Made by a program: the position numbers and the translations under genes. A stretch of 64,000 nt of DNA. It comes from Trypanosoma brucei. Its lineage: Eukaryota. The notes beneath the pieces were generated by a model. The model saw nothing but the letters and a program-made list of their open reading frames with translations, was not told where the DNA came from and did no database searches. Position 1 is the stretch's first letter. Every line of letters begins with the position of its first letter. This document shows positions 15,773 to 43,729 of this stretch, in pieces. The stretch covers positions 2,784,001 through 2,848,000 of the forward strand of contig CM000208.1 in NCBI GenBank assembly GCA_000002445.1, read 5' to 3'.

Positions 15773-18304
15773 ATGAGTTCAACCAAAGAGCCGCTACACA
15801 TGTTCTCCTTAGGCGTAACGGAGCGCTCATGGGACGATGATGATGGAAATGCGCAGCATCAGCAGCGTCAACAACCGATGCCGCTTAAGATAGGATCTGA
15901 GCAGGGTGGTGGCGTTTACAACAGTAACGTTGCACAGCTTCAGGCCCATGGGCGGTCCGACTTTGGCGCCACGGGTGAAATTCTGGGGTCGTCATCCTAC
16001 CCGTCCAATACGCCACCACCAGGGACGGGTTCCAATGCAATGGGGTGGGTGCGTTACACTGCGATGGACTTTGAGCTTCTACTCCACGAGGGAAAACAAC
16101 CTACGGATGATATGCGCCGTTCGCAGGTCTACGCTAAGTGGTACCAGACGAAAAGGTTAACTGATGATCGCGTTCTCCCGCCCCTGACAAATCCTCGCTA
16201 TGACGCGAAGGGCGATGCGGAGGCCCCGTGGGATCCTGTGGTCCCCATGCGTATTCAAGGCCAGCAAAGCGTCGCCGGAGGCGGCGGCTCAGAGTTGGTA
16301 GGAAAAGGGGGTATTCGTATGGAGCTAGATACCAAAAACCTTCAGCAGGCACATGAGCAGCAAACGTTCAACCCGTACGCGATGTGCTTTCAACAGCAAG
16401 ACGACAATATAATGAGTCCAGGAACGCAGTTCTTTGGCGCCTATGCACCGACGCCGCTAGCAACGATGGCAACACCAAATACACTGCGTGCCTACGCTCA
16501 CTCTCGTATGGGCACACAGGTTCGCAACAATAACAACGTTAACCGCGGGGAAATTACACAAATCATGGCACCTGTGGCGGGGCAAACGCTTTACAACTCG
16601 GACTGGAATGCGACTGGCGACTTCACAGCAGCTCAAGGCATGGTGCCGAATGTCTGTCAGCAATATTACACTCAAGAACAAATGAACACCTTTGATTATT
16701 ATGCCGACCCGACGGTAGTTAATTACTACAATACGGCAACCACCAATGTGACTGACCACACGCAGATGCAGCCAGCCATAATGGCCATCGCCCCTACGGG
16801 GGATATGGGTGCATTACGTGGTCCTGCTGGTAGCGCTGGTCCAATGGCTGGTCCGAGTGGAGGCGCTACTCGAGGTGGTAGACGTAGCGGTGGTAGGGGA
16901 CGTGGAGGTAACAGCGGCAAATGGGGTTCAGGCGCGGCGAGAGGTCGTGGCACAGCCCCTCGTGAGTCGACGCAGCCGTGCTCCGAGTTGTTGGAACATT
17001 TCCGCACTGACGCGGCGAGTGGTGGAGTAAGCCAGTGGCGCATTGCTCATATTCTTAACCACGCCGTGGAGTTTGCGCAAGATCAAGAGGGTAGTCGCTT
17101 TATTCAGCGTGCAGTGGAGAGCGCCACTCATGATGAGGTGGACGCTCTCTTCCGCGAGATTTTCGAGTCTCCCCTCGAACTGGTAGTTGACGTCTTCGGT
17201 AATTATGTACTGCAGAAGCTTCTTGAGGTGGGAAATGCGCGCCAACTTGCCTACGCTGCCACGCGCTTACAGAACAATGTTGTCAATCTCACCCTTCAAA
17301 CATATGGGTGCCGTGTGATCCAAAAGTGCATTGAGGTGATGCCCCCCGAAGGCCTCGATATTATTCTCTCTGAACTTAGGGGCAATGTAGCGAAATGCAT
17401 TCAGGACCAGAACGGAAACCACGTGGTGCAGAAATGCGTGGAGGTTATTCCGCAACGTTGCGGCTTTATTGTCTCGGCGTTCTCTGGACGGGTGATGGAG
17501 TTGGCCACCCATGCGTACGGTTGCCGCGTTATTCAGTGCATTATGGATCATTGCCCCGACCAGGAGGAAGCCATTTTTTCGGAGTTGCTTGATTGCGTAG
17601 GTACTTTGGCCACAGACCAATACGGTAACTATGTCATTCAACATGTGCTGCAGCACATGAAAGATGATGAAAAGGTGGGACGCATCTTCGACGCCTTGAA
17701 GGGGAACTTCTACGAATCCAGCAAGCAGAAATTTGCATCTAATGTAATGGAGAAACTATTTGTGCGTGCTGACCCTCAGCAGCGTATGGAACTTGTCAAC
17801 ATGATGTGCTCACCTATAGGAGATGACAGTGGTGAACCTGTTGAGGTGTTGTCCTTTAAGCGTTCGTCCGCTCCCAAAAAGGAAAATGTTGAGAAGCAGC
17901 GCAACGAGTACGCCAAAAAGGGCCGTCGCGACAGAGAACGCGATCGCGAGAAGGAGAACTCTCTTGGACTTGTGGTTGAAGTGCAGTTGGCGGGAAGAGA
18001 GCCTCCCAGCATGCTTTGCCTTATGATGCAGAATCCTTTCGCTAATTACGTTGCCCAACGCGTACTTGACGCCGCTCACGTTGATCAGTACGTTTGCCTC
18101 ATCGATAATATTCAAAAGTTCCTGTTGCCCATCAGCACCTACACATATGGTGCCCCAATCGTGCAGCGTTTGGTCCGACGCGAGTTAGTAAAGGCTCCCG
18201 ACGACGTTTCGCTAAATCTCGCAGTGAGTGCTGTTTCTGCAGGGGGAAGGGGCAGTTATGGGCACCACCGCAGGGAAGCGCGCGAGCACTTCGATGCCGA
18301 GTGA
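15773..18304 (+). CDS. Pumilio/PUF-family RNA-binding protein (8 PUF repeats)
   Basis: The track start 15743 is a TTG. The first ATG is 15773 (MSSTKEP). The C-terminal half holds eight recognisable PUF repeats (FGNYVLQKLLEVG, YGCRVIQKCIEV, QNGNHVVQKCVEV, YGCRVIQCIMDH, QYGNYVIQHVLQH, FASNVMEKLF, FANYVAQRVLD). The N-terminal half is Q/G/N-rich low complexity with an RGG-like segment (GGRRSGGRGRGGNSG). Confidence 0.9.
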   Translation: MSSTKEPLHMFSLGVTERSWDDDDGNAQHQQRQQPMPLKIGSEQGGGVYNSNVAQLQAHGRSDFGATGEILGSSSYPSNTPPPGTGSNAMGWVRYTAMDFELLLHEGKQPTDDMRRSQVYAKWYQTKRLTDDRVLPPLTNPRYDAKGDAEAPWDPVVPMRIQGQQSVAGGGGSELVGKGGIRMELDTKNLQQAHEQQTFNPYAMCFQQQDDNIMSPGTQFFGAYAPTPLATMATPNTLRAYAHSRMGTQVRNNNNVNRGEITQIMAPVAGQTLYNSDWNATGDFTAAQGMVPNVCQQYYTQEQMNTFDYYADPTVVNYYNTATTNVTDHTQMQPAIMAIAPTGDMGALRGPAGSAGPMAGPSGGATRGGRRSGGRGRGGNSGKWGSGAARGRGTAPRESTQPCSELLEHFRTDAASGGVSQWRIAHILNHAVEFAQDQEGSRFIQRAVESATHDEVDALFREIFESPLELVVDVFGNYVLQKLLEVGNARQLAYAATRLQNNVVNLTLQTYGCRVIQKCIEVMPPEGLDIILSELRGNVAKCIQDQNGNHVVQKCVEVIPQRCGFIVSAFSGRVMELATHAYGCRVIQCIMDHCPDQEEAIFSELLDCVGTLATDQYGNYVIQHVLQHMKDDEKVGRIFDALKGNFYESSKQKFASNVMEKLFVRADPQQRMELVNMMCSPIGDDSGEPVEVLSFKRSSAPKKENVEKQRNEYAKKGRRDRERDREKENSLGLVVEVQLAGREPPSMLCLMMQNPFANYVAQRVLDAAHVDQYVCLIDNIQKFLLPISTYTYGAPIVQRLVRRELVKAPDDVSLNLAVSAVSAGGRGSYGHHRREAREHFDAE

Positions 18305-21269
18305 AAAAATAAAATAAAATAGTTGATAGGAGTTGTTGGACAGTCTGAGTAAATGGAGGAAAAGAGAAAAGAGAAAAGGGGAATAGTGGGTGGTGTGTGA
18401 CGAAATGTAGAGATGCATCACCGCAGTGAGAGTGACGTCGAATTGGCGTCCAATTTCCATATGAGGTCACGACGTTCCTCACAAGCATGAATAAAATGAA
18501 ATGAAGAAGGAAATTTTTTTTTTTTTAAAAAAGAAAAATCAAAACCAATATCAATTAATAAATAAATATATTGTGTCCCCTCCATTTCCCTTGGTTGTCT
18601 GCTCTTTGTTGTTTTTTTTCTTCATTTTACTATTCATTTTATTTCTCTCCATCATGTCACATAATCCCTCAAGCTGTGACCCAGAGGAGGGAAATGAATA
18701 TCAAGAGGAAAAGATATTATATTTCAACATGTTTTGATGTAGAGAAGGATTGCACGTGTGCGTACACTTGAAGGCGTTTGAAGGAAAGGGAGAAGAAAGA
18801 GGGAGGGGAGAAGGAATTGTGATGGAAAGAAAGAGAAAAAAAAAAGAAAAAAAGAAAAAAAAGGGGGGAAAAAAGAGTAAAGGAAGAGCAAAACTAAGAC
18901 ATGCAAGAAAAAATAATATTAAATGAAGAAAGAAGAAACGAAAAAAAAAATCATATTGAATAATTGAGAGGGAATGATTGTTGTTGTTGTTGTTTTTTTT
19001 TTTTGCTCCCTCTTGTATTTTGTAAAGAAAGAAAAGAAAAAGATACGCGTACATCCCCTTTTCTCTTCATTTTCTTTTTTTCTTTTTTTTTTCCCCCTTT
19101 TGTCTCCTTTCCTACGTGAAGATTAATGCAAAAAAGATATTTTGTTGTTTTTTTCACCTTTTATCCCTCCTGAACTCTCGTTACTTCTGTTATATTTTTA
19201 CGATTTATTACTTCTCACTAGTGTTTTGGATGTTGGTGTTGGTTGAGTGTTCTTTGTGTTTTGTTTTTGTTTTTTATTATTTTGTTTCGGATTCTTATTT
19301 GTTTGTTTTATTTTCAATTTTTTTTTGTTGTGATTTAGCGTAGTGACGAGTGAATGGGACGAGAAGAAATACGATAGTGAATAGGAGAGTTTTTGTTCGT
19401 TTGTTTTTTGTTTTTGTTTTTGTGAAAAAGAGAAGTAAAGAAGGAGGAACCGAGCGGAGAAAAAATGGTGGGATGAAAGACAAAGGAATAAAAAATAAAA
19501 AAATAGGAGTGATGACGATGACTATGATGATGATGAATGGTAGAGAGAATAAATTTTATTATGTTGAGGAGTGTAGTGAAAAGGTGACAAAGAATTTTTG
19601 AAAAGGAAGAGATTTTGCAGGTGGAAAAAAGGGAGACGTTTAGTTTGAAAATGAAAGTAAATTGGCTGAATGGGGAGAGGGATTTTTTTAAAAAAAAAAT
19701 TAGTAATAATAATAATAAAATCAGCGAATAGACGAGTGGAATGGCAAAATAACAATATCAACAACAACAGATTAAAAGGAAGGAAAAAAAAAAATAGAAC
19801 AGAGTAAAAGTAAAAAATGCCAACAGAGCACTACTACCACCGAAATCAAGAACAAAACAAATCAATACAGAAAAAAAAAATACGGAAGAAAGACGATGAG
19901 AAACGAGGGAATTCAGAAAAAGAAAAAAAAATAAGAGAGATAAGGAAGGGGGAGCGCACGAAGATGTGAATGAGTGACAAAGCAAATATAACCAAAAGCA
20001 GTTATTATTATTATTATTTGTTATTGTTATTGTTGTTATTGTTAGTAGACAAGAAGGATGAGTGATAACGACGTACCCATTTTTGTCTGTGTTTATGTTT
20101 GTGCTTGTGTGTTTTTTTTTCCCTGTGATTTGCGAAGAATATAAATATATAAATATATATAAGTATATATAAATAAATATATATAAATATTTACTTATAC
20201 AATATGTGTTCGTCTGTGATGTTTTTGTGTGTGTGTCTATGAGCTGCGAAAAGAATGATGAATGAAAATTTATTTCTTTTAAACACTATGTTTGAAGGAA
20301 GTAAAGGCTATAGATTGTTTGACATCGGTGGTGTGAAAGGGGACAAAAAAGCAAAGAGAGGTCAGCTTTTTGTGTTTCATTTGTTTTCTTTTTTCTCCTT
20401 TTTCTCCTTTTTTTCTTTTTTTCTTTTTTTTAAAATCACCATTGAGGTGAACAGGTAGAGGTGTTGTAGAGATATGAAAGTGGATATAACGACGCAGAGC
20501 GTGGCGTAGACAAAAATTAAAAAAAATTAAAATTAATGCAGAAGAAAGGAGGAAAAGGTGTGTGTGGCGGATCTGGAAGGGGAAGTGACGAAAAAAAAAA
20601 ATGAAAGTGAGAAGCATTCACTATCTCCATTTTTTCCTCTTTATTTTGTTGTGCCCGGGAATTTCTTTTTTTTTTTTCTTATTGGACCTTTAGGGAGGAC
20701 GTTGATGCGTTCTTCTCCAATTTTTGTCTTACTTCTTTTATTTTATTTTATTTTATTTCTTGTTTGTAGTGCTGTGCTTTTTCTTCGTCTTCTCTTTGTC
20801 TGTTTTTCTTTTTCTTTTTTTGTTTTCATGTGCTGTTTGTGCCCCTTCTTACATTTTTTTTTCTACACGCAAATCCATTTGATGGACTTGCTTCTGTGGA
20901 GCTGGGGAATCTCAGTTTCGAAATATACAATAATAATAATATTATTATTATTACATTAATATAAATATTATTATTAGTGGTAATATTTATTGTAGTGTTC
21001 GTATCTTTCCTTTTCTCCTTCCATTCCATTCCATTCCATTCCCTTTTCTTTTTCTTCTCCCTTCTCCCTTTTCCCTCTCCTTTCTTTCCTTCCTTATGTT
21101 CTTTTTCTTTTTCCTTCTGATTTTCCTCATTTTACATGTTGACCTTCCGTTGCAGAGGAGTATTTATTATGCTTGTGTGTATGTGAGGGGGGAAAAAAAG
21201 AAGTGAAAAGAAATGTGAAGGTGAAGGCCGAGTGGGATGCATCGGGACGATTGTTATATTTGCTTCATT

Positions 21270-21360
21270 ATATATTATATATTATATATATATATATATA
21301 TTATTATTATTATTATTACCATTATTGTTAATATTAATATTATTATTACTACTACTATTA
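21270..21360. repeat. compound AT-rich microsatellite ((TATAT)n, (TA)n, (ATT)n, (TAT)n)
   Basis: tatatattatatattatatatatatatatatattattattattattacc... read directly. Confidence 0.85.
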
Positions 21361-23400
21361 CTATTTGCCCGCTCCTTCTCTTCTCTTCTCTTCTTTAATT
21401 AATTTACATTTACTCTTCTCCATTCCCCACCCTAACTTTTTTTGGGCGTCGTTGCGTCTCCTCTGTGCCCCCGATGCCTAAGGTTGCTTTTTGTATTTAT
21501 TTCGCTGTTGTGTTTTCTTGTTTGTTCTTGCGCACGTGTTGGAATGTACATGATTTTCTAAATTAAGAGAGAGAGAAAGAGGAAAAACGAAATATTCGCA
21601 AATGATTATATATTAATATATATATATATATATATAAATATGTGCATGTATATGTTTTTTTTTTGGTTCTATCTACGTGTGTTCGCGTCTGTGTTTGTGT
21701 TTGTCTGTTTGTGTTTCTTTCTCTACGAGGAAAGGCAGTAACTGAAAGGAATGCGTGTAGGATACCTGGGGAAATGGAGGAGAGGGATTTTGTGTTTGTT
21801 CGCCTGTGTGGAGGAATGAATAAAAAATTCTTTTTTTTTTTAAAAAAAAGAAAGGCGACGCAAAAAGAAGAGGGACGGTCGTGGGAGAGGAAAAGAGTTA
21901 TATGAAGTGGGTCATTTAAAAGGAGCAAAAAGAAGAAAAAAAATTAAGGAAAACAAATCAAAACGAATTAAAAAAACAACAACAACAACAGGGTAAATGG
22001 ATGAAAGGGGAGGGGGGAAAAAAAAGGGGGAGAGGAGTAAAGGAGCGAAACGGGAGAAGGGGATCGGTAGAAGAATGACAGGAATATATATTTTATATAT
22101 TATTTAGCTGTGGAGAAATTGAAGTTTAGGGGTGATGAAATGAAAAATGGGAATTAGTGCGTATATATATATATGTGTGTGTGTGTGTGCGCGCGTATGT
22201 ATGGCTATTGTGCAGTACATTTACGAGTTATTTAAACATATGTATCCATCAGGAATAATTGAACATGAAGACAAACAACCAAACAAGCAAATGAAACGGA
22301 ATAGATAAATGAGAAGCAGAAGGTGAACATGATGGAGTTTTGAGTGTGTGTGTGTGTGAGTGTGTGCATTTGGTGGTGTAAGAGTAGGAGGAGGGAAGTG
22401 AGGCGTTAGTATAATGAGGAAAAAGATGAGAAAGCATTTTCTTCTTTTCTTCTTCTGAAAAAAATAAAAAGGAGAAGAGGGGGAATGTCAACTGGGAAGG
22501 GAAGACAAGGCAAAGTGCGAATCCTTCCCCGCATGCCTGTTTTATTCTTTCCTTTTCTTTTGTTTTTTAGCAATTGCTGCTGCTGAGGGCCCACTGTTTT
22601 TGTTTATTCCTTTTGTTATACGCCCTTCATCTTCTCTTTTGTTTCTCTTTCCCTCCTTCTTCACCTTCACCCTTGTTTTTTTTCTTTTTCTATTTCATTC
22701 ACTTTCCTTCTTCTATCAGTCACCATATATACACGTGTGAGTTTGTTAGCGGTACCGTCTTGTTACTACTTTTATTTGGCTGCTTTTTTTGTTTTCACTT
22801 TGTTTTTCTGTGGCATTGAACACCATTGTCAAAACCTGCCTCCAGTGATGTTCATTCATTCATTCATTCAACTATTTTATTTGATTTTATTTTTGCGCAT
22901 GTGTACTCCTGCCATCTTTCCATCCATTCCAGTCATCCTGCGTAGTTGAACTTTCCCCTCGTTCCTTTTTTTTTTCTATTTTTTTGTAAAATATTTACAT
23001 TAGTTATAAAAGTGTTGATATGTCCATTGTAGCGCACTCGTAACACCTTCCGTGCATTCAGCATTTGCCCATACATTTTAATTTGCTTATCAATATATGA
23101 ATATATAAATATATAAATATATATATATTTATGTGCATTGATAATTGCACGCGTTGGGAGAAGGAAATGCGGGGCACGTGGTGGCAACGGCAAATGATTT
23201 CGCAAGGATTGACAGCAGATATTTGTGTAATGTCCCCCCCCCAAAAAAAAATAATAGTAATAAATAAATAACAAAAAACAGAAAGAAAAAAAGAACAACA
23301 ACAAAAAGAAACAAAACCGGGTGTAGAAAAATGTACACACACAAAAAAAAAAGAAAAGAGATTATGAATTAAAGGCGTGCAGGAAATTCTTTGTAAAGAA

Positions 23401-23475
23401 CTTTTAGTTTCACTCTGCTCTCTTTTATCTCCTTACTGCTCTGAACACCATTATTTTTTATTTTTATTACTTCGT
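23401..23475 (+). promoter_or_regulatory. polypyrimidine tract plus AG upstream of small ORF 23612
   Basis: cttttagtttcactctgctctcttttatctccttactgctctgaacaccattattttttatttttattacttcgttttcttgcatctacataag. Confidence 0.4.
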
Positions 23476-35674: not shown

Positions 35675-36907
35675 ATGCCTGCGCTCAGTTGGGCGGATAA
35701 GGCTCGTGGGCTTTCAGCTTCCAGAAGCGGTGGTGCGGATCACATTGTTAGTCGTAAGACTGACACCGCCCTCTCACACACTGGTCTGAAGGGTGAGAAG
35801 AAATATCGACACTACATTGAGGACAGAACTTCAGTTCTACCTCGGGGACTGGAGCCCAACATGTGGGACTTGGTCTGTTCGTACCTTAATGTTCAGGATG
35901 TCAAAAAGTTGAGTGGCACCTGCCGCTTTCTGTGGGAGTTGCTGCGCCCTCGTGACAACGTGTGGCGTGTGCAGTTGGACTACTTTAGGGAAGATATGAA
36001 AAATTTGTATGGTGAGGGCCGCCTACTCTGTACGGAGTTGTTTGTGCCACCATCTTGCAGTGCTTATGAACAAATGAAACTGGAGTTACAGTTATACATA
36101 ATGGACACTCATCGTGAGTGGCAGCTTAAGGACCGTGAAAAAACGGATGGCCCTTACGGTATGTTTTCTTGCCCTTTAACTCTTGCTCATGATCCCTCTA
36201 TCAACGAGGAGGGTTGGCAGGACGAGGATGTTACACCCTTTTCTCAGTTGCGGATAATTCGTGCAGTACGACTTTTCCCTTCGGGGTTATCTACATCCCA
36301 AAGTTTGCGACACAATGGAGGCAGTGGCTCAATCTTCACGCCGAGCGAGTACATGATGTTATGCGAAAATATCAATCATGGTGATTTCACAGGCTCTCGT
36401 TTGGGTGTGCAGGATCACGTAGATGAGGAAGGCGGGTTGTTGCAGTTTGCTCTCATGGAGACTCTCCGTCGTGCCAAGTATCGCAAACCCCCTCGATGCT
36501 CCACGGGTGAAGTGCGCACTTCTTCCCACCTGGTGCTGCGTCATTTTGGCGGTTTGCTGCTATCAATATGCCGTTACGAAGCAGAAGACATTTTAGATTC
36601 CCTTCTCCACAAGCGGGGCCTCGTGGATGACTTCGTTACGTACTGTAACTACAGGGAGCGATCGACAACGAACCGGCCGTGTTTTCCGTTTCCTTGTCAG
36701 TCACGTTACTACATTGCTCCAGAGTTATGCCGAAGGGGCCGTGTGGGTCTTATCATTACGGACTCTGTGCGTTTGCTCGTGGTGGTCGGAAAGGAGCTCG
36801 TGACGCGGGACGATGCGCGATGGGGCAGTGATTTTGCAGCGGCAGCAGCTGCGGGTCGTACGGTATATGGAGGTGGCATGAACCCTCAGCAACCACGATT
36901 GGTGTAG
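35675..36907 (+). CDS. hypothetical protein with N-terminal F-box-like motif
   Basis: LPRGLEPNMWDLVCSYLNVQDVKKLSGTCRFLWELL fits the F-box consensus (LP..l...Il.yL...dl..l..Vck.W..l). 410 aa. Confidence 0.5.
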   Translation: MPALSWADKARGLSASRSGGADHIVSRKTDTALSHTGLKGEKKYRHYIEDRTSVLPRGLEPNMWDLVCSYLNVQDVKKLSGTCRFLWELLRPRDNVWRVQLDYFREDMKNLYGEGRLLCTELFVPPSCSAYEQMKLELQLYIMDTHREWQLKDREKTDGPYGMFSCPLTLAHDPSINEEGWQDEDVTPFSQLRIIRAVRLFPSGLSTSQSLRHNGGSGSIFTPSEYMMLCENINHGDFTGSRLGVQDHVDEEGGLLQFALMETLRRAKYRKPPRCSTGEVRTSSHLVLRHFGGLLLSICRYEAEDILDSLLHKRGLVDDFVTYCNYRERSTTNRPCFPFPCQSRYYIAPELCRRGRVGLIITDSVRLLVVVGKELVTRDDARWGSDFAAAAAAGRTVYGGGMNPQQPRLV

Positions 36908-37284: not shown

Positions 37285-40200
37285 ATGTACACTACGACAG
37301 CCAAACAGCCCACAGTGGTGGGGGAGCGCGCTTTTTCCATGTCGGAGAAAGTTCTCACGTTCCCTTCCGCCGTAACTTCAATGACAGTTACCCCGGATCA
37401 CGTGTGGCTGGTCATGTCTGACGGAGGTGTGCAGATACGTGATGTTTCCACCACGGAGTTGGTTCACTGCTTCGCTAGCGCATCAAGACCGAGGCGTGTG
37501 GTACGTATATGGTCGATTCTCGCTGTTCCAGATCCTGCTGTGGGGTTACAGGTATGGATGGGGCTGTCCAATGGTGCCGTCGAGGTCTATGACGCACAAA
37601 CTTTCGGCGTATTGCGCCAGCAGACGAAGCACGCGGGTGGGGTATATTGTCTTGCCGAGTTTGGCGGGTACGTGTACTCAGGGAGCAGTGACTTCAAGAT
37701 TGGGCAGTGGTACGCCGCGGACGCACGCCTCGTGCGGATGCTGCACGGTCATAGCAATTATGTGCGCTGTCTTTATGCCGAGGGCAACGCCGTTGTGAGT
37801 GGGTCCGATGATTGTACGGTACGTGTATGGGATGTAGGAAGCGGTGACGCCCAGTTAACGGGACGCTTTCACGACCGCTCGGCCGTGTCTGCTCTGTGTC
37901 GTGTAGGCATTACGATGTGGTCTGGTGATGATAGTGGCCGTGTTGCGGTGTGGAGGCTCGACACATGTGAGGCTTTACACATTCTTCAGGCACATAGCGG
38001 TCGCGTTTCGTCACTGAAGAAGGTTGGATCACGTGTGTACTCTGGTGGCGCAGATGGCGTGATTGCTGTATTTGATGCGGAGGAGGGTCGTTTGCTGAGC
38101 CACGTGAATAATTACCACGGTGTTCGTGTCTCTTCTCTTGTTGTAACGTCGGAGCTGCGACGGTTTTGTATCTGGTCCTCTAGTGCGGACAAGATGATTC
38201 AGTGTTGGCACCAGGATGAGTATACTGTTATGATAGGTGATCAGGAAAGGTTTTCAGAACGTTTTTGGTACGAAACAGGTTCGACACCGTACCGTGAGTT
38301 CCGGGACAGTGTTCTGAAGCACATCGGTAACCTGCGAGAGACACTCAAGATAAGAACGTCCGACAATCCACGTTTAGTAGATATAGTGGGTTTATCTAAC
38401 TCCGCATCGACTGTGGAGGGTTTTCGGAAACGGGAAGCCATACTCAATAAGGAGCTTTCGTCTCTGGAGGGTCGCCAAGCATCACTGGAGAGTCAACTGG
38501 AGCAGTCGAAGGGAGTACTGGAGAATATAGAAAAGGAAACGAGCTTGGTGCTTGGCATTCTTCGTGCAGCTCAAGCTGAGCTTCGATCGCTGGACCCCGT
38601 TTTGCATGGCTCTCTTCTCATGTCGGCAGGAGGCGATGCGAATGGACCGCTTGCAAATATTGTTAGCACGCTATCGGGTCAACCGGCAACAATGACTAAC
38701 GTGCCGAACCCACCTGGCAACTTGGCTGTTCCGACTTCTACCGCTGCAACGACGTCTGCTTGGCCAGCAATTCCCTCAGCAGCTGCGGTGGGTAGTGGAG
38801 CTCAATACGCTGCGTATCAGCCCACTGCAATTCAGGGGCATCCCTTCTATGTAGGCACTCCAGCAACTTATACCCAACCTGCCTCGGTCTCGCACCCAGT
38901 CGCTGGCGTCAGTGGGGCGACAGTGTCCAATTTGCAGAGCCCCGTTCCCCCAGTTCAGGTGTGTGGAACGACTCCTACTGGGGTGTCAACGGCACAAATT
39001 CCTGGTGGCCAGGGTGTGGCCTTTACGGCATTACAACCGGCCGGCACCATGGCTGTGGGAGGACCAACAGGTTCAACAAATGCTGTTCAACAAGTTCCCA
39101 CAGCTGCTACCACACCCAGCGGCACGACTGCCGCAGCAATGGTTGGCGCACTACCGCCTGGTCAGAGCACAGCCACCACATCAGCCCAACCACTCGGAAC
39201 CGCGGCTGCGGGAGCAATGGCTGGCGCACTACCGCCTGGTCAGAGCATAGCCACCACATCAGCCCAACCACTCGGAACCGCGGCTGCGGGAGCAATGGCT
39301 GGCGCACTACCGCCTGGTCAGAGCATAGCCACCACATCAGCCCAACCACTCGGAACCGCGGCTGCAGGAGCAATGGCTGGCGCACTACCGCCTGGTCAGA
39401 GCATAGCCACCACATCAGCCCAACCACTCGGAACCGCGGCTGCGGGAACGATGGCTGGCGCACTACCGCCTGGTCAGAGCATAGCCACCACATCAGCCCA
39501 ACCACTCGGAACCGCGGCTGCGGGAACGATGGCTGGCGCACTACCGCCTGGTCAGAGCATAGCCACCACATCAGCCCAACCACTCGGAACCGCGGCTGCA
39601 GGAGCAATGGCTGGCGCACTACCGCCTGGTCAGAGCATAGCCACCACATCAGCCCAACCACCTAGCACCTTGGGTGTAGGAGGGTCAACAGGGGCTCCAA
39701 CATTTGGACAAAACTTTGCTGTGTCGCTGCAACCTTCGACTGCCACCACCTCCGTTGGGCCGGCTGGGTTAACGTCTTCTGCGGCAAACATGGCAGTTTC
39801 TTCTCAGCCGTTGGGCGCCTCAACTGTCGTTGATGCTTCGGGGCCACTACACAGCGGCCAAAGCCTGACTGGGTCGGCGCATCCGCTCTCTACTCAGGCT
39901 TCCGGAAAACTGATGGGAACGGCATCGGCTGGTGAAAGTGTAACTACGCCCTTTCAACCATTGGGTGCCACTGCAAATGGTAGCTCTTTGGTGTTCACAA
40001 CCGCTGGTCAGAGTTTAACAGCTATACCACAATCTCTTGGGGTCGCATCTACCGGGCAGTCAACGGCACAAATTCCTGGTGGCCAGGGTGTGGCCTTTAC
40101 GGCGTTACAACCGGCTGGCACCATGGCTGTGGGAGGACCAACAGGTTCAACAAATGCTGTTCAACAAGTTCCCACAGCTGCTACCACACCCAGCGGCACG

Positions 40201-40602
40201 ACTGCCGCAGCAATGGCTGGCGCACTACCGCCTGGTCAGAGCATAGCCACCACATCAGCCCAACCACTCGGAACCGCGGCTGCAGGAGGGCCAGCAGGGA
40301 AACCCCCTGTTGAGCAAGATTTTTTATCCACGAAGCGCGTCGTTCCACCCGTTTCTCGTTGTGGAACCGCGCCCCCGTCCAAACACGTCCATTTCGAGCA
40401 GGTAGCTGAAGCTACCACCAGTGGCGGTGTGGTCTACAGGGGCGTAGAATGGACCAATAAAAACGTCGGCAATTATATCCAGCGCCGTTACTACGGGGCG
40501 GAACCAAGTCTTCGGACCCCGGCTCTTGAAAAGCGCAGGAGATTGCAAGGTCGTATGCCGGACGTTAAGTTAGAGCCGTTCAAAAGGAAAGACGAGGGAT
40601 GA
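37285..40602 (+). CDS. WD40-repeat protein with coiled-coil and long A/T/G/P/Q-rich repetitive C-terminal region
   Basis: The track start 37225 is a GTG. The first ATG is 37285, with a second at 37339. The N-terminal 330 aa hold classic WD repeats (GHSNYVRCLYAEGNAVVSGSDDCTVRVWDV). A coiled-coil lies at about residues 400-450. The remainder is low complexity, including a 78-nt tandem array and a duplicated 230-nt block. Short conserved C-terminal tail (VVYRGVEWTNKNVGNYIQRRYYG). Confidence 0.8.
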   Translation: MYTTTAKQPTVVGERAFSMSEKVLTFPSAVTSMTVTPDHVWLVMSDGGVQIRDVSTTELVHCFASASRPRRVVRIWSILAVPDPAVGLQVWMGLSNGAVEVYDAQTFGVLRQQTKHAGGVYCLAEFGGYVYSGSSDFKIGQWYAADARLVRMLHGHSNYVRCLYAEGNAVVSGSDDCTVRVWDVGSGDAQLTGRFHDRSAVSALCRVGITMWSGDDSGRVAVWRLDTCEALHILQAHSGRVSSLKKVGSRVYSGGADGVIAVFDAEEGRLLSHVNNYHGVRVSSLVVTSELRRFCIWSSSADKMIQCWHQDEYTVMIGDQERFSERFWYETGSTPYREFRDSVLKHIGNLRETLKIRTSDNPRLVDIVGLSNSASTVEGFRKREAILNKELSSLEGRQASLESQLEQSKGVLENIEKETSLVLGILRAAQAELRSLDPVLHGSLLMSAGGDANGPLANIVSTLSGQPATMTNVPNPPGNLAVPTSTAATTSAWPAIPSAAAVGSGAQYAAYQPTAIQGHPFYVGTPATYTQPASVSHPVAGVSGATVSNLQSPVPPVQVCGTTPTGVSTAQIPGGQGVAFTALQPAGTMAVGGPTGSTNAVQQVPTAATTPSGTTAAAMVGALPPGQSTATTSAQPLGTAAAGAMAGALPPGQSIATTSAQPLGTAAAGAMAGALPPGQSIATTSAQPLGTAAAGAMAGALPPGQSIATTSAQPLGTAAAGTMAGALPPGQSIATTSAQPLGTAAAGTMAGALPPGQSIATTSAQPLGTAAAGAMAGALPPGQSIATTSAQPPSTLGVGGSTGAPTFGQNFAVSLQPSTATTSVGPAGLTSSAANMAVSSQPLGASTVVDASGPLHSGQSLTGSAHPLSTQASGKLMGTASAGESVTTPFQPLGATANGSSLVFTTAGQSLTAIPQSLGVASTGQSTAQIPGGQGVAFTALQPAGTMAVGGPTGSTNAVQQVPTAATTPSGTTAAAMAGALPPGQSIATTSAQPLGTAAAGGPAGKPPVEQDFLSTKRVVPPVSRCGTAPPSKHVHFEQVAEATTSGGVVYRGVEWTNKNVGNYIQRRYYGAEPSLRTPALEKRRRLQGRMPDVKLEPFKRKDEG
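38986..39215 (+). repeat. copy 1 of a roughly 230-nt intragenic duplication (copy 2 at 40060-40285, about 97% identical)
   Basis: tcaacggcacaaattcctggtggccagggtgtggcctttacggc...cagcccaaccactcggaaccgcggctgc occurs twice. It encodes STAQIPGGQGVAFTALQPAGTMAVGGPTGSTNAVQQVPTAATTPSGTTAAAM(V/A)GALPPGQS... Confidence 0.85.
39125..39660 (+). repeat. 78-nt tandem repeat, about 6.9 copies, encoding AMAGALPPGQSIATTSAQPLGTAAAG
   Basis: Near-identical 26-aa units with A/T variation at unit position 1 and one S-T/I change, read directly from sequence and translation. The minus-strand and alternate-frame ORFs here (39107..39661 and 38961..39665) are artefacts of the repeat. Confidence 0.9.
40060..40285 (+). 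repeat. copy 2 of the intragenic duplication
   Basis: See 38986-39215. Confidence 0.85.
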
Positions 40603-40860
40603 TAGAGAGTTACAAAGCCGTTAAAAGCGTTTCCGGTAAATGGCGTTAAAAAGTATATAGATATTTTTCCATAGAAATTGTCACGGCTTTTTGTGGTGTT
40701 GTTACTCAGGCTGTTTTTTCCGAGGAAACTTCGGGTATCAGGGTGTTGTGTCTTGATCCACTGACTGCCTTTTCTTTATTTACCATCTGACTAGGAACAG
40801 TAATACTGTAGCCTCTACAGTATTGAGAGCGCGGCGCTGACTAACTAGGTGGAATAGACC

Positions 40861-42461
40861 ATGAGAAGCGCGCAGTTCCCACTTGCAGCAATACCGCCCC
40901 CACCACCATCAGCAGCAGTCCCACAACCACCAATGGCAGCAGTCCCGCAACCACCAATGGCAGCAGTCCCGCAACCTCCAATGGCAACAGTCCCGCAACC
41001 ACCAATGGCAGCAGTCCCACAACCACCATCAGCAGCAGTCCCACAACCACCAATGGCAGCAGTCCCGCAACCACCAATGGCAGCAGTCCCACAACCACCA
41101 TCAGCAGCAGTCCCGCAACCACCAATGGCAGCAGTCCCGCAACCACCAATGGCAGCAGTCCCGCAACCTCCAATGGCAGCAGTCCCGCAACCTCCAATGG
41201 CAACAGTCCCGCAACCACCAAGGCAGCAGTCCCACAACCGCCAATGGCAGCAGTCCCACAACCACCATTGGCAGCAGTCCCACAACCACCAATGGCAGCA
41301 GTCCCACAACCTCCAATGGCAGCAGTCCCACAACCACCAATGGCAGCAGTCCCACAACCACCAATGGCAGCAGTCCCACAACCACCAATGGCAGCAGTCC
41401 CACAACCACCATCAGCAGCAGTCCCACAACCACCATCAGCAGCAGTCCCGCAACCACCAATGGCAGCAGTCCCGCAACCACCAATGGCAGCAGTCCCACA
41501 ACCACCATCAGCAGCAGTCCCACAACCACCAATGGCAGCAGTCCCACAACCACCAATGGCAGCAGTCCCACAACCTCCAATGGCAGCAGTCCCACAACCA
41601 CCAATGGCAGCAGTCCCACAACCTCCAATGGCAGCAGTCCCACAACCACCAATGGCAGCAGTCCCACAACCACCAATGGCAGCAGTCCCGCAACCTCCAA
41701 TGGCAGCAGTCCCGCAACCTCCAATGGCAGCAGTCCCGCAACCTCCAATGGCAGCAGTCCCACAACCACCAAAGGCAGCAGTCCCACAACCACCAATGGC
41801 AGCAGTCCCGCAACCACCAATGGCAGCAGCGCGACAGTCACCGCTGGTGGTGGCCCCGGCGTGCCCACCAACTTCCGATGGGCTAAATGCTACTGATGGC
41901 ACGGGTAGTGGATTATCAAAAAGTCTTGTAATACCATCTGCTGCCGGGGGGTTGGCAGTATCATTGTCCGAGACTCAGCAAACTCGTGGATACGGAAGAG
42001 AAACGGAGGAGATTTTTTCAGGTAACCACCCCACTAGCAACCCCAATTTACTGTCTCATTCACCTTTGCTTGCAGGTCTTCCTTCCTGGAACATCCCAAG
42101 TGCTTCAAGTTCTACTTGGGCGGGGTCGACAGTAACTCAAGTCTTTGTGCCCCAGCTGGATGCTGTCCCAGCGCGCAGCGTCATCTTACCGACTGCGGTG
42201 TGGTTTGACGACAGACTAGAGCGTGTAGTTGTTCCTCGAGTGAATGCCACTTCTTCGGTGCCAAAGGGATTACAAGAGGAAGGTTCTAGGCAGCGGTTAA
42301 AGCCGTCATTCAAACGAGTGAAGGACAAATACCTCTGGCGGCTGCCACCGTCGAAAGAGGGTATAGCAAGTGAGTTGTGGCGTGGAGTTTACTGGAAGCA
42401 TGTTGATGTGCATCGTTACGTTTCCAGGCGGTATTTTGGGGGACCGCCACCGGTTGAATAA
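40861..42461 (+). CDS. repetitive proline/alanine-rich protein, (PPMAAVPQ)n about 39 copies plus a unique 200-aa C-terminal domain. The reading frame is broken by a 1-nt deletion near nt 41220
   Basis: ATG 40861 (MRSAQFPLAAIPPPPPSAAVPQ) follows a polyY/AG context and reads (PPMAAVPQ)n until about 41220, where one unit is 23 nt (ccaccaa-ggcagcag, lacking the T of ATG) and shifts the frame. The ORF 41244..42461 continues the same repeat in the next frame into a unique C-terminus ending VYWKHVDVHRYVSRRYFGGPP. It is either a sequencing or assembly error in the array or a genuine pseudogenising frameshift. Confidence 0.5.
40896..41832 (+). repeat. 24-nt tandem repeat array (about 39 units; consensus ccaccaatggcagcagtccc[a/g]caa)
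   Basis: Read directly. Variants include cct/cca, atg to tca (Ser), atg to aag (Lys), and one 23-nt unit. All six frames are open across it, which produces the many overlapping artefactual ORFs on both strands. Confidence 0.95.
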
Positions 42462-42796: not shown

Positions 42797-43729
42797 ATGC
42801 TGCGCCACACATCACGGAACAATGCTTTGCACGCATTTGTTCGCTCACCGCATTACCGAACTATTCCGAGCGCTGGACCAAATGGGATTGTTGTCAACCG
42901 AGATATGCTCGTTCACCAGTTCAGAGACTTCTACAAAACACTTCAACATTGCTCTCTTGTCGACAAAGTCCATTTGATGTCCGAGAGACCCTCGGTAGAA
43001 GCACTACGGGTAGCGGACCAAATGGTTTCCATCGGTGCCACATTTTTAGAGATGCCACTGACAGGTATGGAACATCGCGCGACAGAATTTATGGAGTCAA
43101 TGCGGTATGTTCGTGGTGCTGGTGGACCCTCTACTCTTGCCTCGTACTTGCAAGATACGGAGAATTGCCGGTGTAATAGCGGCGATGTGGTGTGTTTACC
43201 GAATGGCATAGCAGTTGGCCACGGTCCGAGAACAAACGCAGTGGCTCATACTACGCTGAAACAATTGTTCGAAGTGAAAGATGACCAATTTTCTTTTGAT
43301 GTCTTCACTTTAGAACAGGAGGGTGATGCGCCACCGCTTGGGGACTATTTCGGTTTTGCTGGGAGCAACGTATTACTCACTTGGAAAGATGAGCACGGTT
43401 TACTTGCTGTAGATCAATACCAACAGAAACAGCCCCACACGGAGATGAATGTAGTTTATCTTGAACCTGGTTGCCATTTTTTATCTTTCTATGGTGTCGA
43501 CCACACGATAGATGTTTTAGTTCAGAAGGGCTACGAACGCTCAATGGACAGCATTGCTGCTGCGGGTTTGAATCCTATTCCTGTTCAGTGGTCGGAGATG
43601 GACAAACTTGGGATATCGATGAGGGCCGCAGTTCTTCCACTTAAATTCTTCAAGGCGAATGTTGGTGGCATGTTGTCGAGGAACAAGAGTCGTGGAGCCC
43701 GATGGCAGACGCATCAACTGCAGAAATAA
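42797..43729 (+). CDS. amidinotransferase-superfamily protein, DDAH-like (possible pseudoenzyme)
   Basis: NSGDVVCLPNGIAVGHGPRTNAVAHTTLKQLF resembles the DDAH core DGGDV..G..fvGlSkRTN as I remember it. GCHFLSF resembles the His-containing GLHLKSF. The C-terminal region (EMDKLGISMRAAVLPL) aligns to the Cys-nucleophile region (ELEKVDGLLTCCSVLI) but has no Cys. Confidence 0.5.
   Translation: MLRHTSRNNALHAFVRSPHYRTIPSAGPNGIVVNRDMLVHQFRDFYKTLQHCSLVDKVHLMSERPSVEALRVADQMVSIGATFLEMPLTGMEHRATEFMESMRYVRGAGGPSTLASYLQDTENCRCNSGDVVCLPNGIAVGHGPRTNAVAHTTLKQLFEVKDDQFSFDVFTLEQEGDAPPLGDYFGFAGSNVLLTWKDEHGLLAVDQYQQKQPHTEMNVVYLEPGCHFLSFYGVDHTIDVLVQKGYERSMDSIAAAGLNPIPVQWSEMDKLGISMRAAVLPLKFFKANVGGMLSRNKSRGARWQTHQLQK

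What the first reader, a model, noticed from the sequence alone, without database searches (positions are those of the whole stretch)
37285..42461. Adjacent pair of genes with long A/P/G/T-rich repeat arrays and a similar C-terminal motif, a possible repeat-bearing paralog family
The WD40 gene (37285-40602) and the next gene (40861-42461) both consist largely of Ala/Pro/Thr/Gly/Gln-rich low-complexity sequence organised as tandem DNA repeats (78-nt and 24-nt units). Both end in similar tails: VVYRGVEWTNKNVGNYIQRRYYGAEP versus ELWRGVYWKHVDVHRYVSRRYFGGPP. These share 11 of 26 identities plus conservative I/V and Y/F changes, in a pattern RGV.W....V..Y(I/V).RRY(Y/F)G. I do not recognise this as any named domain. 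Two neighbouring repeat-containing genes sharing a C-terminal module suggests tandem duplication followed by independent repeat expansion. The repeats look like immunodominant repetitive antigens or FG-like scaffold proteins, but that is speculation.
Basis: seen in the sequence. Interest (0 to 1): 0.7.

Follow-up and report, generated by a model that had tools for sequence, protein, structure and literature searches.

The report
Shared tail motif, two trypanosome genes
Two neighbouring Trypanosoma brucei genes of unknown function really do end in the same roughly 20-residue peptide motif, which is conserved in both gene families across trypanosomatid parasites, matches no named domain, and most likely serves as a shared docking site at the end of long, repeat-rich flexible regions.

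Summary
The window is T. brucei TREU927 chromosome 10. Gene 1 (37285-40602) is a WD40/coiled-coil protein with a 78-nt x6.8 array. Gene 2 carries a 24-nt x38 array. Their tails align at 11/25 identities.

That score alone is weak. Related species settle it:
- Both genes have syntenic orthologues, in the order WD40-B, WD40-A, gene 2, RESC5, in all 8 other assemblies compared.
- Each family keeps its tail almost unchanged, with the core W-x4-V-x2-Y-[IV]-x-R-R-[YF]-x-G-x2-P.
- Profile-profile comparison gives 96% probability, E 2e-9.
- A motif profile run against 1.84 billion proteins found 31 hits, and at least 28 belong to these two families.

No Pfam or PDB sequence match exists. AlphaFold2 shows each tail as a short, low-confidence helix after a long disordered region.

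Most likely this is an ancient shared C-terminal docking motif. The repeat arrays act as spacers that vary by species and strain.

Three corrections:
- Gene 2's reading frame from 40861 is broken by a 1-nt deletion at 41221/41222. The annotated CDS starts at 41244.
- Gene 1 in this assembly is a hybrid of two WD40 paralogues that are separate in other strains.
- The FG-nucleoporin reading fails, and the antigen idea is untested.

Function is unknown. Interest is moderate.

The parts
37285..40602 (+). Gene 1 CDS (XP_823391.1, 1105 aa): WD40 propeller, coiled coil, disordered repeat region and tail motif. In this assembly it is a hybrid of the WD40-B 5' end and the WD40-A 3' part.
   Evidence: Exact protein match. 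Pfam WD40. Hybrid nature from comparison with T. equiperdum and T. b. gambiense.
37351..38208 (+). Beta-propeller of WD40 repeats (aa 23-308).
   Evidence: AlphaFold2 model with pLDDT mostly 85-98. Foldseek matches generic WD40 propellers such as Fbw7, beta-TrCP and LIS1.
37508..38110 (+). About 600-bp core that is 100% identical to both the B and the A gene of T. equiperdum. This is the recombination and gene-conversion zone where the B/A hybrid junction lies.
   Evidence: Sliding identity profile. 601-nt perfect run between B and A in T. equiperdum.
38236..38592 (+). Helical, probable coiled-coil region (aa 318-436).
   Evidence: AlphaFold2 helices 318-436, pLDDT 52-88 by 10-residue block.
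38620..40404 (+). Disordered A/G/T/P/S/Q-rich region (aa 446-1040).
   Evidence: pLDDT below 50 almost throughout. 76% A/P/T/G/Q/S.
39128..39661 (+). 78-nt tandem array, 6.8 copies (26-aa unit).
   Evidence: TRF. 3.2 copies in T. equiperdum and 4.8 in T. b. gambiense.
38975..39214 (+). First copy of a 240-nt dispersed direct repeat. The second copy at 40049-40288 is 97% identical, and the pair brackets the array region.
   Evidence: the repeat finder family D3.
40049..40288 (+). Second copy of the 240-nt dispersed direct repeat.
   Evidence: the repeat finder family D3.
40429..40506 (+). Gene 1 tail motif VVYRGVEWTNKNVGNYIQRRYYGAEP. The core WTNKNVGNYIQRRYYGAEP lies at 40450-40506.
   Evidence: Conserved in family A orthologues.
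40507..40602 (+). Family-A-specific basic extension SLRTPALEKRRRLQGRMPDVKLEPFKRKDEG, plus the stop codon.
   Evidence: Conserved PSLR-x-(P/I/T)-D-L...R-x-P-x-V-K-V-x-P-L in family A alignment A2.
40861..42461 (+). Probable full extent of gene 2. The ATG at 40861 opens MRSAQFPLAAIPPPPPSAAVPQPP..., and the frame is broken by a missing T between 41221 and 41222.
   Evidence: Orthologues begin with the same M-x-(V/I)PPPP pattern.
41244..42461 (+). Gene 2 CDS as annotated (XP_823392.1, 405 aa).
   Evidence: Exact match.
40912..41829 (+). 24-nt tandem array, 38.3 copies, encoding (M/S/L/K)AAVPQPP.
   Evidence: TRF. 31.3 and 30.3 copies in two other assemblies.
42195..42224 (+). Conserved block AVWFDDRLER, followed by VVVP. 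It is predicted as a beta-hairpin and is conserved in gene-2 orthologues as P-x-V-V-(F/Y/W)-x-N/Q...Q-x-V-V-V-P-P.
   Evidence: AlphaFold2 strands 125-128 and 131-134, pLDDT 83-85. Alignment A6.
42372..42449 (+). Gene 2 tail motif ELWRGVYWKHVDVHRYVSRRYFGGPP. The core WKHVDVHRYVSRRYFGGPP lies at 42393-42449 and is followed by PVE and the stop codon.
   Evidence: Near-invariant in 23 orthologues.

Best explanation
The two tails are homologous copies of a short peptide module specific to kinetoplastids. Its shared core is W-x4-V-x2-Y-[I/V]-x-R-R-[Y/F]-x-G-x2-P, with about 32 alignable residues.

Two adjacent, syntenic gene families carry it. WD40-A has a propeller, a coiled coil, a long disordered linker, the tail, and then a basic extension. 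Gene 2 is a small protein without WD40 repeats, with an N-terminal (V/I)PPPP motif, a disordered middle, and the tail at the very C-terminus. The copies separated before the trypanosomatids diverged and have been under strong protein-level purifying selection since. This part is shown.

The inferred mechanism is as follows. The module is a short docking motif that folds, probably as a helix, when it binds a partner. It connects both proteins to the same partner or structure. The low-complexity arrays in front of it are flexible spacers whose sequence and length are free to expand and contract by replication slippage or unequal exchange. Gene 2 would then act as a WD40-less adaptor or competitor for the partner of WD40-A. 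The partner and the cellular process are unknown.
For: Homology and constraint:
- hhalign of family-A tails against gene-2 tails gives probability 96.2%, E 2.2e-9, 32 columns.
- Reciprocal HMM searches find the other family's tails ahead of all noise.
- Conserved order WD40-B, WD40-A, gene 2, RESC5 in T. equiperdum, T. b. gambiense, T. cruzi, T. theileri, Leptomonas, L. infantum, Angomonas and Phytomonas. The A, gene 2, RESC5 part recurs in an unnamed AT-richer kinetoplastid.
- Tail identity is 15-17 of 19 residues between T. brucei and Leishmania, Angomonas or Phytomonas. In these pairs 7-11 of the identical residues use different codons, so selection acts on the protein.
- Tail alignment mean column identity is 68%, against 24% for the gene-2 alignment as a whole.

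Specificity:
- An exhaustive profile search of 1.84 billion representative proteins gave 31 hits at E<=1e-3. At least 28 are A-type or gene-2-type.

Docking-motif character:
- Each tail follows hundreds of residues predicted to be disordered. Each is modelled as an isolated helix: gene 1 residues 1061-1069 at pLDDT about 35-42, and gene 2 residues 187-205 at pLDDT about 65. Neither packs against a domain.
- There is no Pfam domain and no PDB relative.

Spacer behaviour:
- Repeat units differ between species and copy numbers differ between strains.
Against: - No partner, localisation or phenotype is known. No paper in the searchable library mentions the presumed gene IDs, accessions or motif.
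- The helix predictions have low to moderate confidence.
- On a helical wheel, by my own calculation, the conserved residues lie on all sides. That fits a buried or wrapped peptide or a non-helical bound form better than a simple amphipathic helix.
- The high Arg and aromatic content would also suit nucleic-acid or membrane binding.
- Common descent of the two tails is inferred from similarity and adjacency. A 19-residue core cannot support a tree.
Confidence: 0.6

Rival explanations
1. The similarity is chance, or a by-product of low-complexity composition in two repeat-rich proteins.
For: The single pairwise match is short: 25 residues, 30.8 bits. By my arithmetic it would not survive correction for an all-against-all comparison within the window. 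Both proteins are compositionally biased.
Against: The motif lies outside the repeats and is rich in W, Y, R, H and N, not in A, P, T or G. Profile-profile E is 2.2e-9. Cross-family hits precede all noise. Both tails are nearly invariant across trypanosomatids despite many synonymous changes. Only two families carry it among 1.84 billion proteins.
Confidence: 0.02
2. The two tails arose independently and converged because both bind the same partner. They are not descended from one duplicated segment.
For: Short linear motifs do arise convergently. Apart from the tail and proline-rich stretches, the two proteins share nothing alignable. Gene 2 has no WD40 or coiled coil.
Against: Across the two 19-residue cores, 6 positions carry the same residue in nearly every family-A and gene-2 sequence examined (W, V, Y, R, G, P; 5 are invariant in A4). 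Four more are conservatively shared ([IV], R/H, Y/F, aromatic). The spacing is the same, with extra similarity upstream (W/Y-R/K-G-V), which is long for convergence. The genes are adjacent in every genome examined. One divergent kinetoplastid contig has an A-type tail with features of both flavours (WLNPSVSAYVQDRY...FGPPP) and no gene 2 before RESC5.
Confidence: 0.1
3. The tail is not a protein-docking motif. It is a basic and aromatic segment that binds nucleic acid or acidic membranes, or it is one element of a small fold formed together with the conserved upstream blocks of gene 2.
For: The core is rich in Arg, Tyr, Trp and His. Family A continues into a basic stretch, EKRRRLQGR...KRK. Gene 2 has further conserved blocks, including a hairpin at pLDDT 83-85 and W-x-N-R-Y-D-L-Q-P-S-P-S, that could pack with the tail.
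Against: Generic charge or aromatic binding does not normally require near-invariance of specific residues, such as D-V-H-R-Y in gene 2 or N-V-G-N-Y-I-Q-R-R-Y-Y-G in A. AlphaFold2 gave no compact fold, with pTM 0.19. Family A lacks the upstream gene-2 blocks yet keeps the tail.
Confidence: 0.2
4. The ligand of the tail is the WD40 propeller of the neighbouring paralogues themselves, A or B, either in cis as autoinhibition or in trans. Gene 2 would then be a regulator of the WD40 proteins.
For: The propeller resembles peptide-binding propellers of the Fbw7 and beta-TrCP type. The three genes co-occur in every genome examined.
Against: In the AlphaFold2 monomer model of gene 1, the tail does not dock on its own propeller and has pLDDT 35-42. 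Gene adjacency in trypanosomatids does not generally imply functional linkage (general knowledge of polycistronic gene organisation).
Confidence: 0.1

Closest known systems
Short linear motifs / molecular recognition features at the ends of disordered regions (general class)
   Same: About 20 conserved residues embedded in poorly conserved disorder. Predicted to form a helix only weakly on their own. Conserved far more strongly than their surroundings.
   Different: This motif matches no catalogued class that I could test. Pfam and PDB searches found nothing. It is longer and more invariant than typical 3-10-residue motifs.
Peptide-binding WD40 propeller proteins (Fbw7, beta-TrCP, LIS1)
   Same: The N-terminal domain of gene 1 is a WD40 propeller. 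Foldseek E is 1e-22 to 1e-20 against these proteins. Like LIS1, it is combined with a coiled coil.
   Different: There is no F-box or LisH domain. Sequence identity is only 18-29%. The best non-kinetoplastid sequence hits are generic. The resemblance covers the fold only and says nothing about the tail.
Cornifin/SPRR family (PF02389), the label given to the T. equiperdum orthologue of gene 2
   Same: Pro/Gln-rich short tandem repeats give a weak Pfam hit of 28.1 bits.
   Different: The hit is below the 34.8-bit gathering threshold. It lies only in the array, is absent from orthologues without the array, and is compositional.
Gene conversion between adjacent paralogues in T. brucei (TbrPDEB1/TbrPDEB2, PMC2689650, abstract seen)
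   Same: Two closely spaced paralogues exchange a domain-sized segment. Here about 600 bp of the WD40 core is identical between B and A in three Trypanosoma species.
   Different: The boundaries of the homogenised segment are similar in three species. Both reciprocal unequal-crossover products are also seen: the fusion in TREU927 and an extra chimera in T. cruzi.
Trypanosomatid tandem-repeat proteins (for example cytoskeleton-associated repeat antigens; from memory, not tested)
   Same: Long, nearly perfect in-frame tandem arrays whose copy number varies between strains.
   Different: No evidence here for antigenicity or cytoskeletal association. The conserved part is the non-repetitive tail, not the repeats.

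Membership tests
WD40 repeat proteins (Pfam PF00400 and beta-propeller families) | WD40 repeat profile match above the gathering score | tested here: met
   Gene 1 scores 52.6 bits against a cut-off of 27 for PF00400.
WD40 repeat proteins (Pfam PF00400 and beta-propeller families) | Closed beta-propeller fold | tested here: met
   The AlphaFold2 model has 28 strands over residues 23-308 with pLDDT mostly above 85. Foldseek E is about 1e-22 against solved WD40 propellers. Gene 2 has no WD40.
Cornifin/SPRR (PF02389) | Profile match above the gathering score, present in orthologues | tested here: not met
   Gene 2 scores 28.1 bits, below the 34.8-bit cut-off, and only in the array. Seven orthologues give no hit at E<=5.
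FG-repeat nucleoporins | Many FG dipeptides (FG, GLFG, FxFG) spread through the disordered region | tested here: not met
   FG counts are 3 in gene 1 (1 within the disordered region) and 1 in gene 2.
AP2/ERF-type DNA-binding domain (my own lead, from the YRGV-x-W resemblance) | About 60-residue domain with a three-stranded sheet plus a helix, matching PF00847 | tested here: not met
   No Pfam hit for tails or orthologues at E<=5. No PDB sequence hit. Gene 2 ends 3-5 residues after the motif, so there is no room for the rest of the domain. The region is predicted as helix, not sheet.
eIF4E-binding motif Y-x4-L-Phi | Leu at position +5 after Tyr, then a hydrophobic residue | tested here: not met
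   Position +5 is Tyr, or Phe in T. cruzi A, in all aligned family-A and gene-2 tails; none has Leu. The motif definition is from memory.
WW domain | Two Trp about 20-22 residues apart, with a final W-x-x-P and a three-stranded sheet | tested here: not met
   There is no second Trp downstream. Gene 2 terminates at PPP-x-E. No Pfam hit. The definition is from memory.
The new two-family 'tail motif' group (WD40-A and gene-2 orthologues) | Core W-x4-V-x2-Y-[IV]-x-R-R-[YF]-x-G-x2-P near the C-terminus | tested here: met
   Both window genes carry it. Their T. brucei-group cluster representatives (P0001 for gene 2, E 4e-14) and close orthologues of gene 1 (P0079, T. vivax, E 6e-13) score at E<=1e-12 with profile A4, which includes both window tails.
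The new two-family 'tail motif' group (WD40-A and gene-2 orthologues) | Position in the conserved gene order WD40-B, WD40-A, gene 2, RESC5 | tested here: met
   The window has gene 1, gene 2 and then the RESC5 orthologue at 42797-43729. The same order is seen in all 8 other assemblies compared, and the A, gene 2, RESC5 part in one further organism. In the window, B and A are fused.

The most novel reading that the evidence does not exclude
The three adjacent genes (WD40-B, WD40-A and gene 2) form a kinetoplastid-specific modular system. In it, the conserved tail peptide is the ligand of the paralogous Fbw7/beta-TrCP-like propellers or of one shared unknown receptor. Gene 2 carries B's proline motif and A's tail but no propeller, so it would act as a bridging adaptor or competitive regulator. 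The expandable repeat arrays would set the reach or valency. The locus keeps remodelling itself through gene conversion and unequal crossing-over.
Probability: 0.12. Interest if true: 0.6.

Novelty: new member of a known kind. Interest (0 to 1): 0.4.

Why it matters
About half of trypanosome genes have no known function, and these genes are annotated only as 'hypothetical, conserved'.

- The motif is the most strongly constrained part of two such proteins. That gives a concrete experimental handle: tag the proteins, mutate W or RRY, and pull down partners with the peptide.
- The result links three neighbouring genes into one modular family confined to kinetoplastids.
- It flags two probable problems in the TREU927 reference at this locus: a frame break in gene 2 and a fused WD40 gene. 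Anyone designing knock-outs, tags or RNAi against these genes is affected.
- The B/A core identity, together with both reciprocal crossover products, is a clean natural example of concerted evolution and unequal exchange in a trypanosome polycistron.

Tried and rejected
- AP2/ERF-like half-domain, suggested by YRGV-x-W. No Pfam or PDB support, and gene 2 has no room for the domain.
- WW domain and the eIF4E-binding motif Y-x4-L-Phi. Defining residues are absent.
- FG-nucleoporin reading. FG counts are 1-3.
- Cornifin/SPRR annotation. Below threshold and compositional.
- Gene 2 as the detached C-terminal half of the WD40-B paralogue. This was prompted by the shared A-x-VP-x-PP repeats. Rejected because gene 2 is a separate gene downstream of WD40-A in every genome, and B proteins end differently, in ...RRMSF or similar, without the tail.
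- Intramolecular docking of the tail on the propeller. Not seen in the AlphaFold2 monomer model.
- A single-sequence homology search with the non-repeat part of gene 2 found only T. brucei-group proteins. The profile search through the word index returned only 8 proteins. Orthologues had to be recovered by synteny.
- Literature. Nothing on Tb927.10.11850 or 11860, the presumed Leishmania IDs, the UniProt accessions or the motif strings. The TrypTag supplements held as text do not list these genes.
- Rfam found nothing in the window.
- Foldseek against the PDB gave only generic WD40 hits.


Full report
IDENTITY OF THE WINDOW AND THE GENES

The translations of 37285-40602 and 41244-42461 are exact matches to T. 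brucei brucei TREU927 chromosome 10 proteins. These are XP_823391.1 (Q389F7, 1105 aa) and XP_823392.1 (Q389F6, 405 aa), both annotated 'hypothetical protein, conserved'. The next gene downstream, 42797-43729, is the orthologue of genes carrying Pfam RESC5 in other species. From memory, RESC5 is MRB11870 (Tb927.10.11870). That would make the two genes Tb927.10.11850 and Tb927.10.11860, but I could not verify this numbering.

CHECKING THE OBSERVATION

- TRF finds a 78-nt array of 6.8 copies at 39128-39661 and a 24-nt array of 38.3 copies at 40912-41829. These are the only strong arrays in the 64 kb.
- Gene 1 matches Pfam WD40 above threshold.
- Residues 446-1040 of gene 1 are 76% A/P/T/G/Q/S. 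Gene 2 is 23% Pro and 16% Ala.
- The quoted tails sit at 40429-40506 and 42372-42449.
- BLASTP aligns them at 11/25 identities, 17/25 positives and 30.8 bits, with E 3e-7 for that one small comparison.

By my own arithmetic, 30.8 bits would give E of about 0.2 if all coding residues of the window were compared with each other. The pair alone is therefore suggestive and no more.

One detail is wrong. 40861-42461 is not a continuous reading frame. The ATG at 40861 opens MRSAQFPLAAIPPPPPSAAVPQPP..., but one repeat unit lacks a T between 41221 and 41222. The frame shifts there, and the annotated CDS starts at 41244.

The T. equiperdum and T. b. gambiense assemblies break the frame at different places in the same array. 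Gene-2 orthologues in other genera start with the same M-x-(V/I)PPPP pattern. I therefore think the biological gene does run from 40861, and the breaks are sequencing or assembly errors or strain polymorphisms within the array.

RELATED SEQUENCES

A search with the N-terminal 463 residues of gene 1 returned two groups of trypanosomatid WD40/coiled-coil proteins.
- Family A ends in W-(T/V)-N-x-x-V-G-x-Y-I-Q-R-R-(Y/F)-Y-G-x-x-P-S-L-R..., followed by a basic stretch.
- Family B carries A-x-V-P-x-P-P proline repeats and ends differently, in ...RRMSF in Leishmaniinae. It has no tail motif.

Fetching the genomic neighbourhoods showed one conserved gene order: an unrelated gene (409-439 aa in Trypanosoma, longer in the other genera), then WD40-B, WD40-A, a small gene, and RESC5. 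This order holds in T. equiperdum, T. b. gambiense, T. cruzi, T. theileri, Leptomonas pyrrhocoris, L. infantum, Angomonas deanei and Phytomonas. The A, small gene, RESC5 part also appears in an unnamed AT-richer kinetoplastid from a read archive.

The small gene is the orthologue of gene 2. It always begins with a (V/I)PPPP motif. It always ends in W-R-G-x-Y-W-K-H-V-D-V-H-R-Y-(I/V)-A-R-R-Y-F-G-x-P-P-P-x-E at the very C-terminus.

IS THE SHARED TAIL MORE THAN CHANCE?

Four lines of evidence say yes.
- Profile against profile: 10 family-A tails compared with 12 gene-2 tails give hhalign probability 96.2% and E 2.2e-9 over 32 columns.
- Reciprocal HMM searches over 5707 six-frame ORF segments of the window and eight loci. 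The family-A tail HMM finds all nine gene-2 tails (E 5e-6 to 0.15) before the first noise hit (E 0.71). The gene-2 tail HMM finds seven of eight family-A tails (E 0.002 to 0.28) before noise (E 0.65).
- Codon usage: within each family, 13-17 of the 19 core residues are identical between T. brucei and the other genera. Of these identical residues, 6-11 use different codons, so the constraint acts on the protein and not on the DNA.
- Specificity: a 35-position profile of both families, run by HMMER against every one of 1.84 billion representative proteins, gave only 31 hits at E<=1e-3.

The 31 hits break down as follows.
- At least 28 are gene-2-type proteins (111-505 aa, motif at the C-terminal end) or family-A-type proteins (motif followed by PSLR...VKV-x-PL).
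- One more is a divergent 111-aa gene-2 orthologue lying just upstream of RESC5.
- Two look spurious: a bacterial protein with partial repeated matches, and an unnamed repeat protein.

The motif is therefore not a general feature of low-complexity proteins.

WHAT THE LOCUS LOOKS LIKE

Three adjacent genes share modules in pairs.
- B and A share the propeller and coiled coil.
- A and gene 2 share the tail.
- B and gene 2 share the proline motif, and some A proteins also have polyproline runs in their linkers.

One divergent kinetoplastid contig has an A-type protein whose tail mixes both flavours (WLNPSVSAYVQDRY...FGPPP). It has no gene 2 between A and RESC5. This fits gene 2 arising by partial duplication, but it is a single case.

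The repeat arrays are not conserved.
- T. cruzi A has about forty 20-residue units of a different sequence.
- T. rangeli and L. infantum A have other units again.
- T. cruzi gene 2 has no array at all.
- T. theileri gene 2 has five longer units.
- Copy numbers differ among the three T. brucei-group assemblies: 6.8, 3.2 and 4.8 for the 78-nt array, and 38.3, 31.3 and 30.3 for the 24-nt array.

'Independent repeat expansion' is therefore supported. The duplication that created the shared tail is old, not recent.

GENE 1 IS A HYBRID IN THIS ASSEMBLY

In T. equiperdum and T. b. gambiense there are two WD40 genes, 1832 bp apart start to start. B is 453 aa. A is about 1003 aa.
- The window from 36908 to about 38110 is identical to the T. 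equiperdum B gene and its upstream spacer.
- From about 37508 onwards it is identical to A.
- The roughly 600 bp in between is identical to both.

TREU927 gene 1 is therefore B-5'/core/A-3'. That is the deletion product expected from unequal exchange within the shared core, or else an assembly collapse.

The T. cruzi assembly carries the reciprocal product: an extra A-5'/core/B-3' gene between B and A.

The identical core is 587-617 bp of perfect identity with similar boundaries. It exists in T. equiperdum, T. cruzi and T. theileri, with each species having its own sequence. It is absent from Leptomonas, Leishmania, Angomonas and Phytomonas. This indicates ongoing gene conversion within the genus Trypanosoma.

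None of this changes the tail finding, because the tail belongs to the A part. It does mean that the N-terminal 75 residues of the annotated gene 1 belong to the other paralogue.

STRUCTURE AND LIKELY MECHANISM

AlphaFold2 with a 37-sequence alignment models gene 1 in four parts.
- A confident propeller at residues 23-308.
- Helices at 318-436.
- Disorder from 446 to about 1079.
- A short helix over V-G-N-Y-I-Q-R-R-Y (1061-1069) at pLDDT 35-42, not packed against the propeller.

The non-repeat part of gene 2, modelled with 23 sequences, is also mostly disordered. It has one confident hairpin in a conserved block (pLDDT 83-85) and a 19-residue helix over R-G-V-Y-W-K-H-V-D-V-H-R-Y-V-S-R-R-Y-F at pLDDT about 65.

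No Pfam family matches the tails or seven gene-2 orthologues, even at E<=5. No solved structure has a related sequence. The propeller resembles generic peptide-binding WD40 domains.

The picture is a strongly constrained peptide of 20-30 residues at the end of a long, variable, disordered linker. It has a weak intrinsic tendency to form a helix, and it is found in two otherwise different proteins. This is what a docking motif that folds on binding looks like.

I therefore commit to the following. The tail ties WD40-A and gene 2 to a common partner or structure, and the arrays act as expandable spacers. The homology and the constraint are shown. The docking function, the helical bound state and the common partner are inferred. 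Alternatives are nucleic-acid or membrane binding, a small fold formed with gene 2's other blocks, and binding to the paralogous propellers. None of these is excluded.

COMPARISON WITH KNOWN FAMILIES

- Gene 1 is a WD40 protein, tested and met.
- Gene 2 is not a cornifin/SPRR protein. The hit is below threshold and lies only in the array.
- Neither protein is an FG nucleoporin, with 1-3 FG dipeptides.
- The tail is not an AP2, WW or eIF4E-binding motif, because the defining features are absent.
- The tail is an undescribed motif specific to kinetoplastids, within the familiar class of conserved short peptide modules in disordered proteins.

I found no paper mentioning the genes, accessions or motif.

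VERDICT

The motif is a new member of a known kind of feature. Interest is moderate, because the function is unknown, but the motif offers a precise experimental handle and the locus shows clear, ongoing recombination.

Noticed in passing
window 37285-38110 (compare L001 10001-14844 and L002 8168-13157): TREU927 has one WD40 gene where T. equiperdum and T. b. gambiense have two (B at 453 aa, A at about 1003 aa). The window gene is B-5' / shared core / A-3', and 1832 bp are missing. This is either an unequal-crossover deletion allele or an assembly collapse.
   Followed up: yes
L003 12031-13773 (T. cruzi): There is an extra 580-aa gene between B and A. It is the reciprocal chimera, made of the A N-terminus, the shared core and the B C-terminal part with its proline repeats. 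The locus therefore shows both products of unequal exchange in different species.
   Followed up: partly
L001, L003, L004 (B against A genes, about nt 225-835 of each CDS): 587-617 bp of perfect identity between the B and A paralogues in each of three Trypanosoma species, with similar boundaries and species-specific sequence. No such tract exists in Leptomonas, Leishmania, Angomonas or Phytomonas. This points to gene conversion restricted to one genus.
   Followed up: partly
window 41221/41222; L001 about 15800-15900; L002 about 13420-13540: The gene-2 array carries a frame break at a different position in each of three T. brucei-group assemblies. As a result the gene is annotated as 405, 213 and 429 aa. 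These are probably errors within the 24-nt array, and the likely true start is the ATG at 40861.
   Followed up: partly
family B proteins (for example L005 7257-9314, L006 10001-11866); Angomonas A, L007 12292-15252: WD40-B proteins of Leishmaniinae end in ...(T/A)RRMSF, and Angomonas WD40-A ends in ...KRRGSF. From memory, this resembles a basophilic kinase site or a C-terminal 14-3-3-type motif. T. brucei B lacks both this ending and the proline repeats.
   Followed up: no
window 38975-39214 and 40049-40288: A 240-nt direct repeat at 97% identity brackets the 78-nt array region inside gene 1. About 80 residues of the protein are therefore duplicated roughly 1 kb apart.
   Followed up: no
window 35675-36907: The upstream 410-aa gene is syntenic in the Trypanosoma loci (409-439 aa); a longer gene (639-852 aa) occupies that position in Leishmaniinae and Phytomonas, and its orthology was not tested. 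To my eye it contains an F-box-like stretch (LPRGLEPNMWDLVCSYLNVQDVKKLSGTCRFLWELL), but Pfam finds nothing. By gene numbering it may be Tb927.10.11840, named TZP50, a flagellar transition-zone marker in PMC6529878. The mapping is unverified.
   Followed up: partly
window 18300-25100: A stretch of about 6.8 kb with only 32-37% G+C over most of its length, against about 50% elsewhere. It has no ORF of 200 aa or more. No Rfam family reaches its gathering score, and TRF finds no tandem array scoring 150 or more.
   Followed up: partly
L009 484-3095 (unnamed kinetoplastid, SRR7085473): A divergent WD40-A-type protein whose tail combines features of both tail flavours (WLNPSVSAYVQDRY...FGPPP). It is followed directly by RESC5 with no gene-2 orthologue. 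It may represent a state before gene 2 arose or after its loss.
   Followed up: partly
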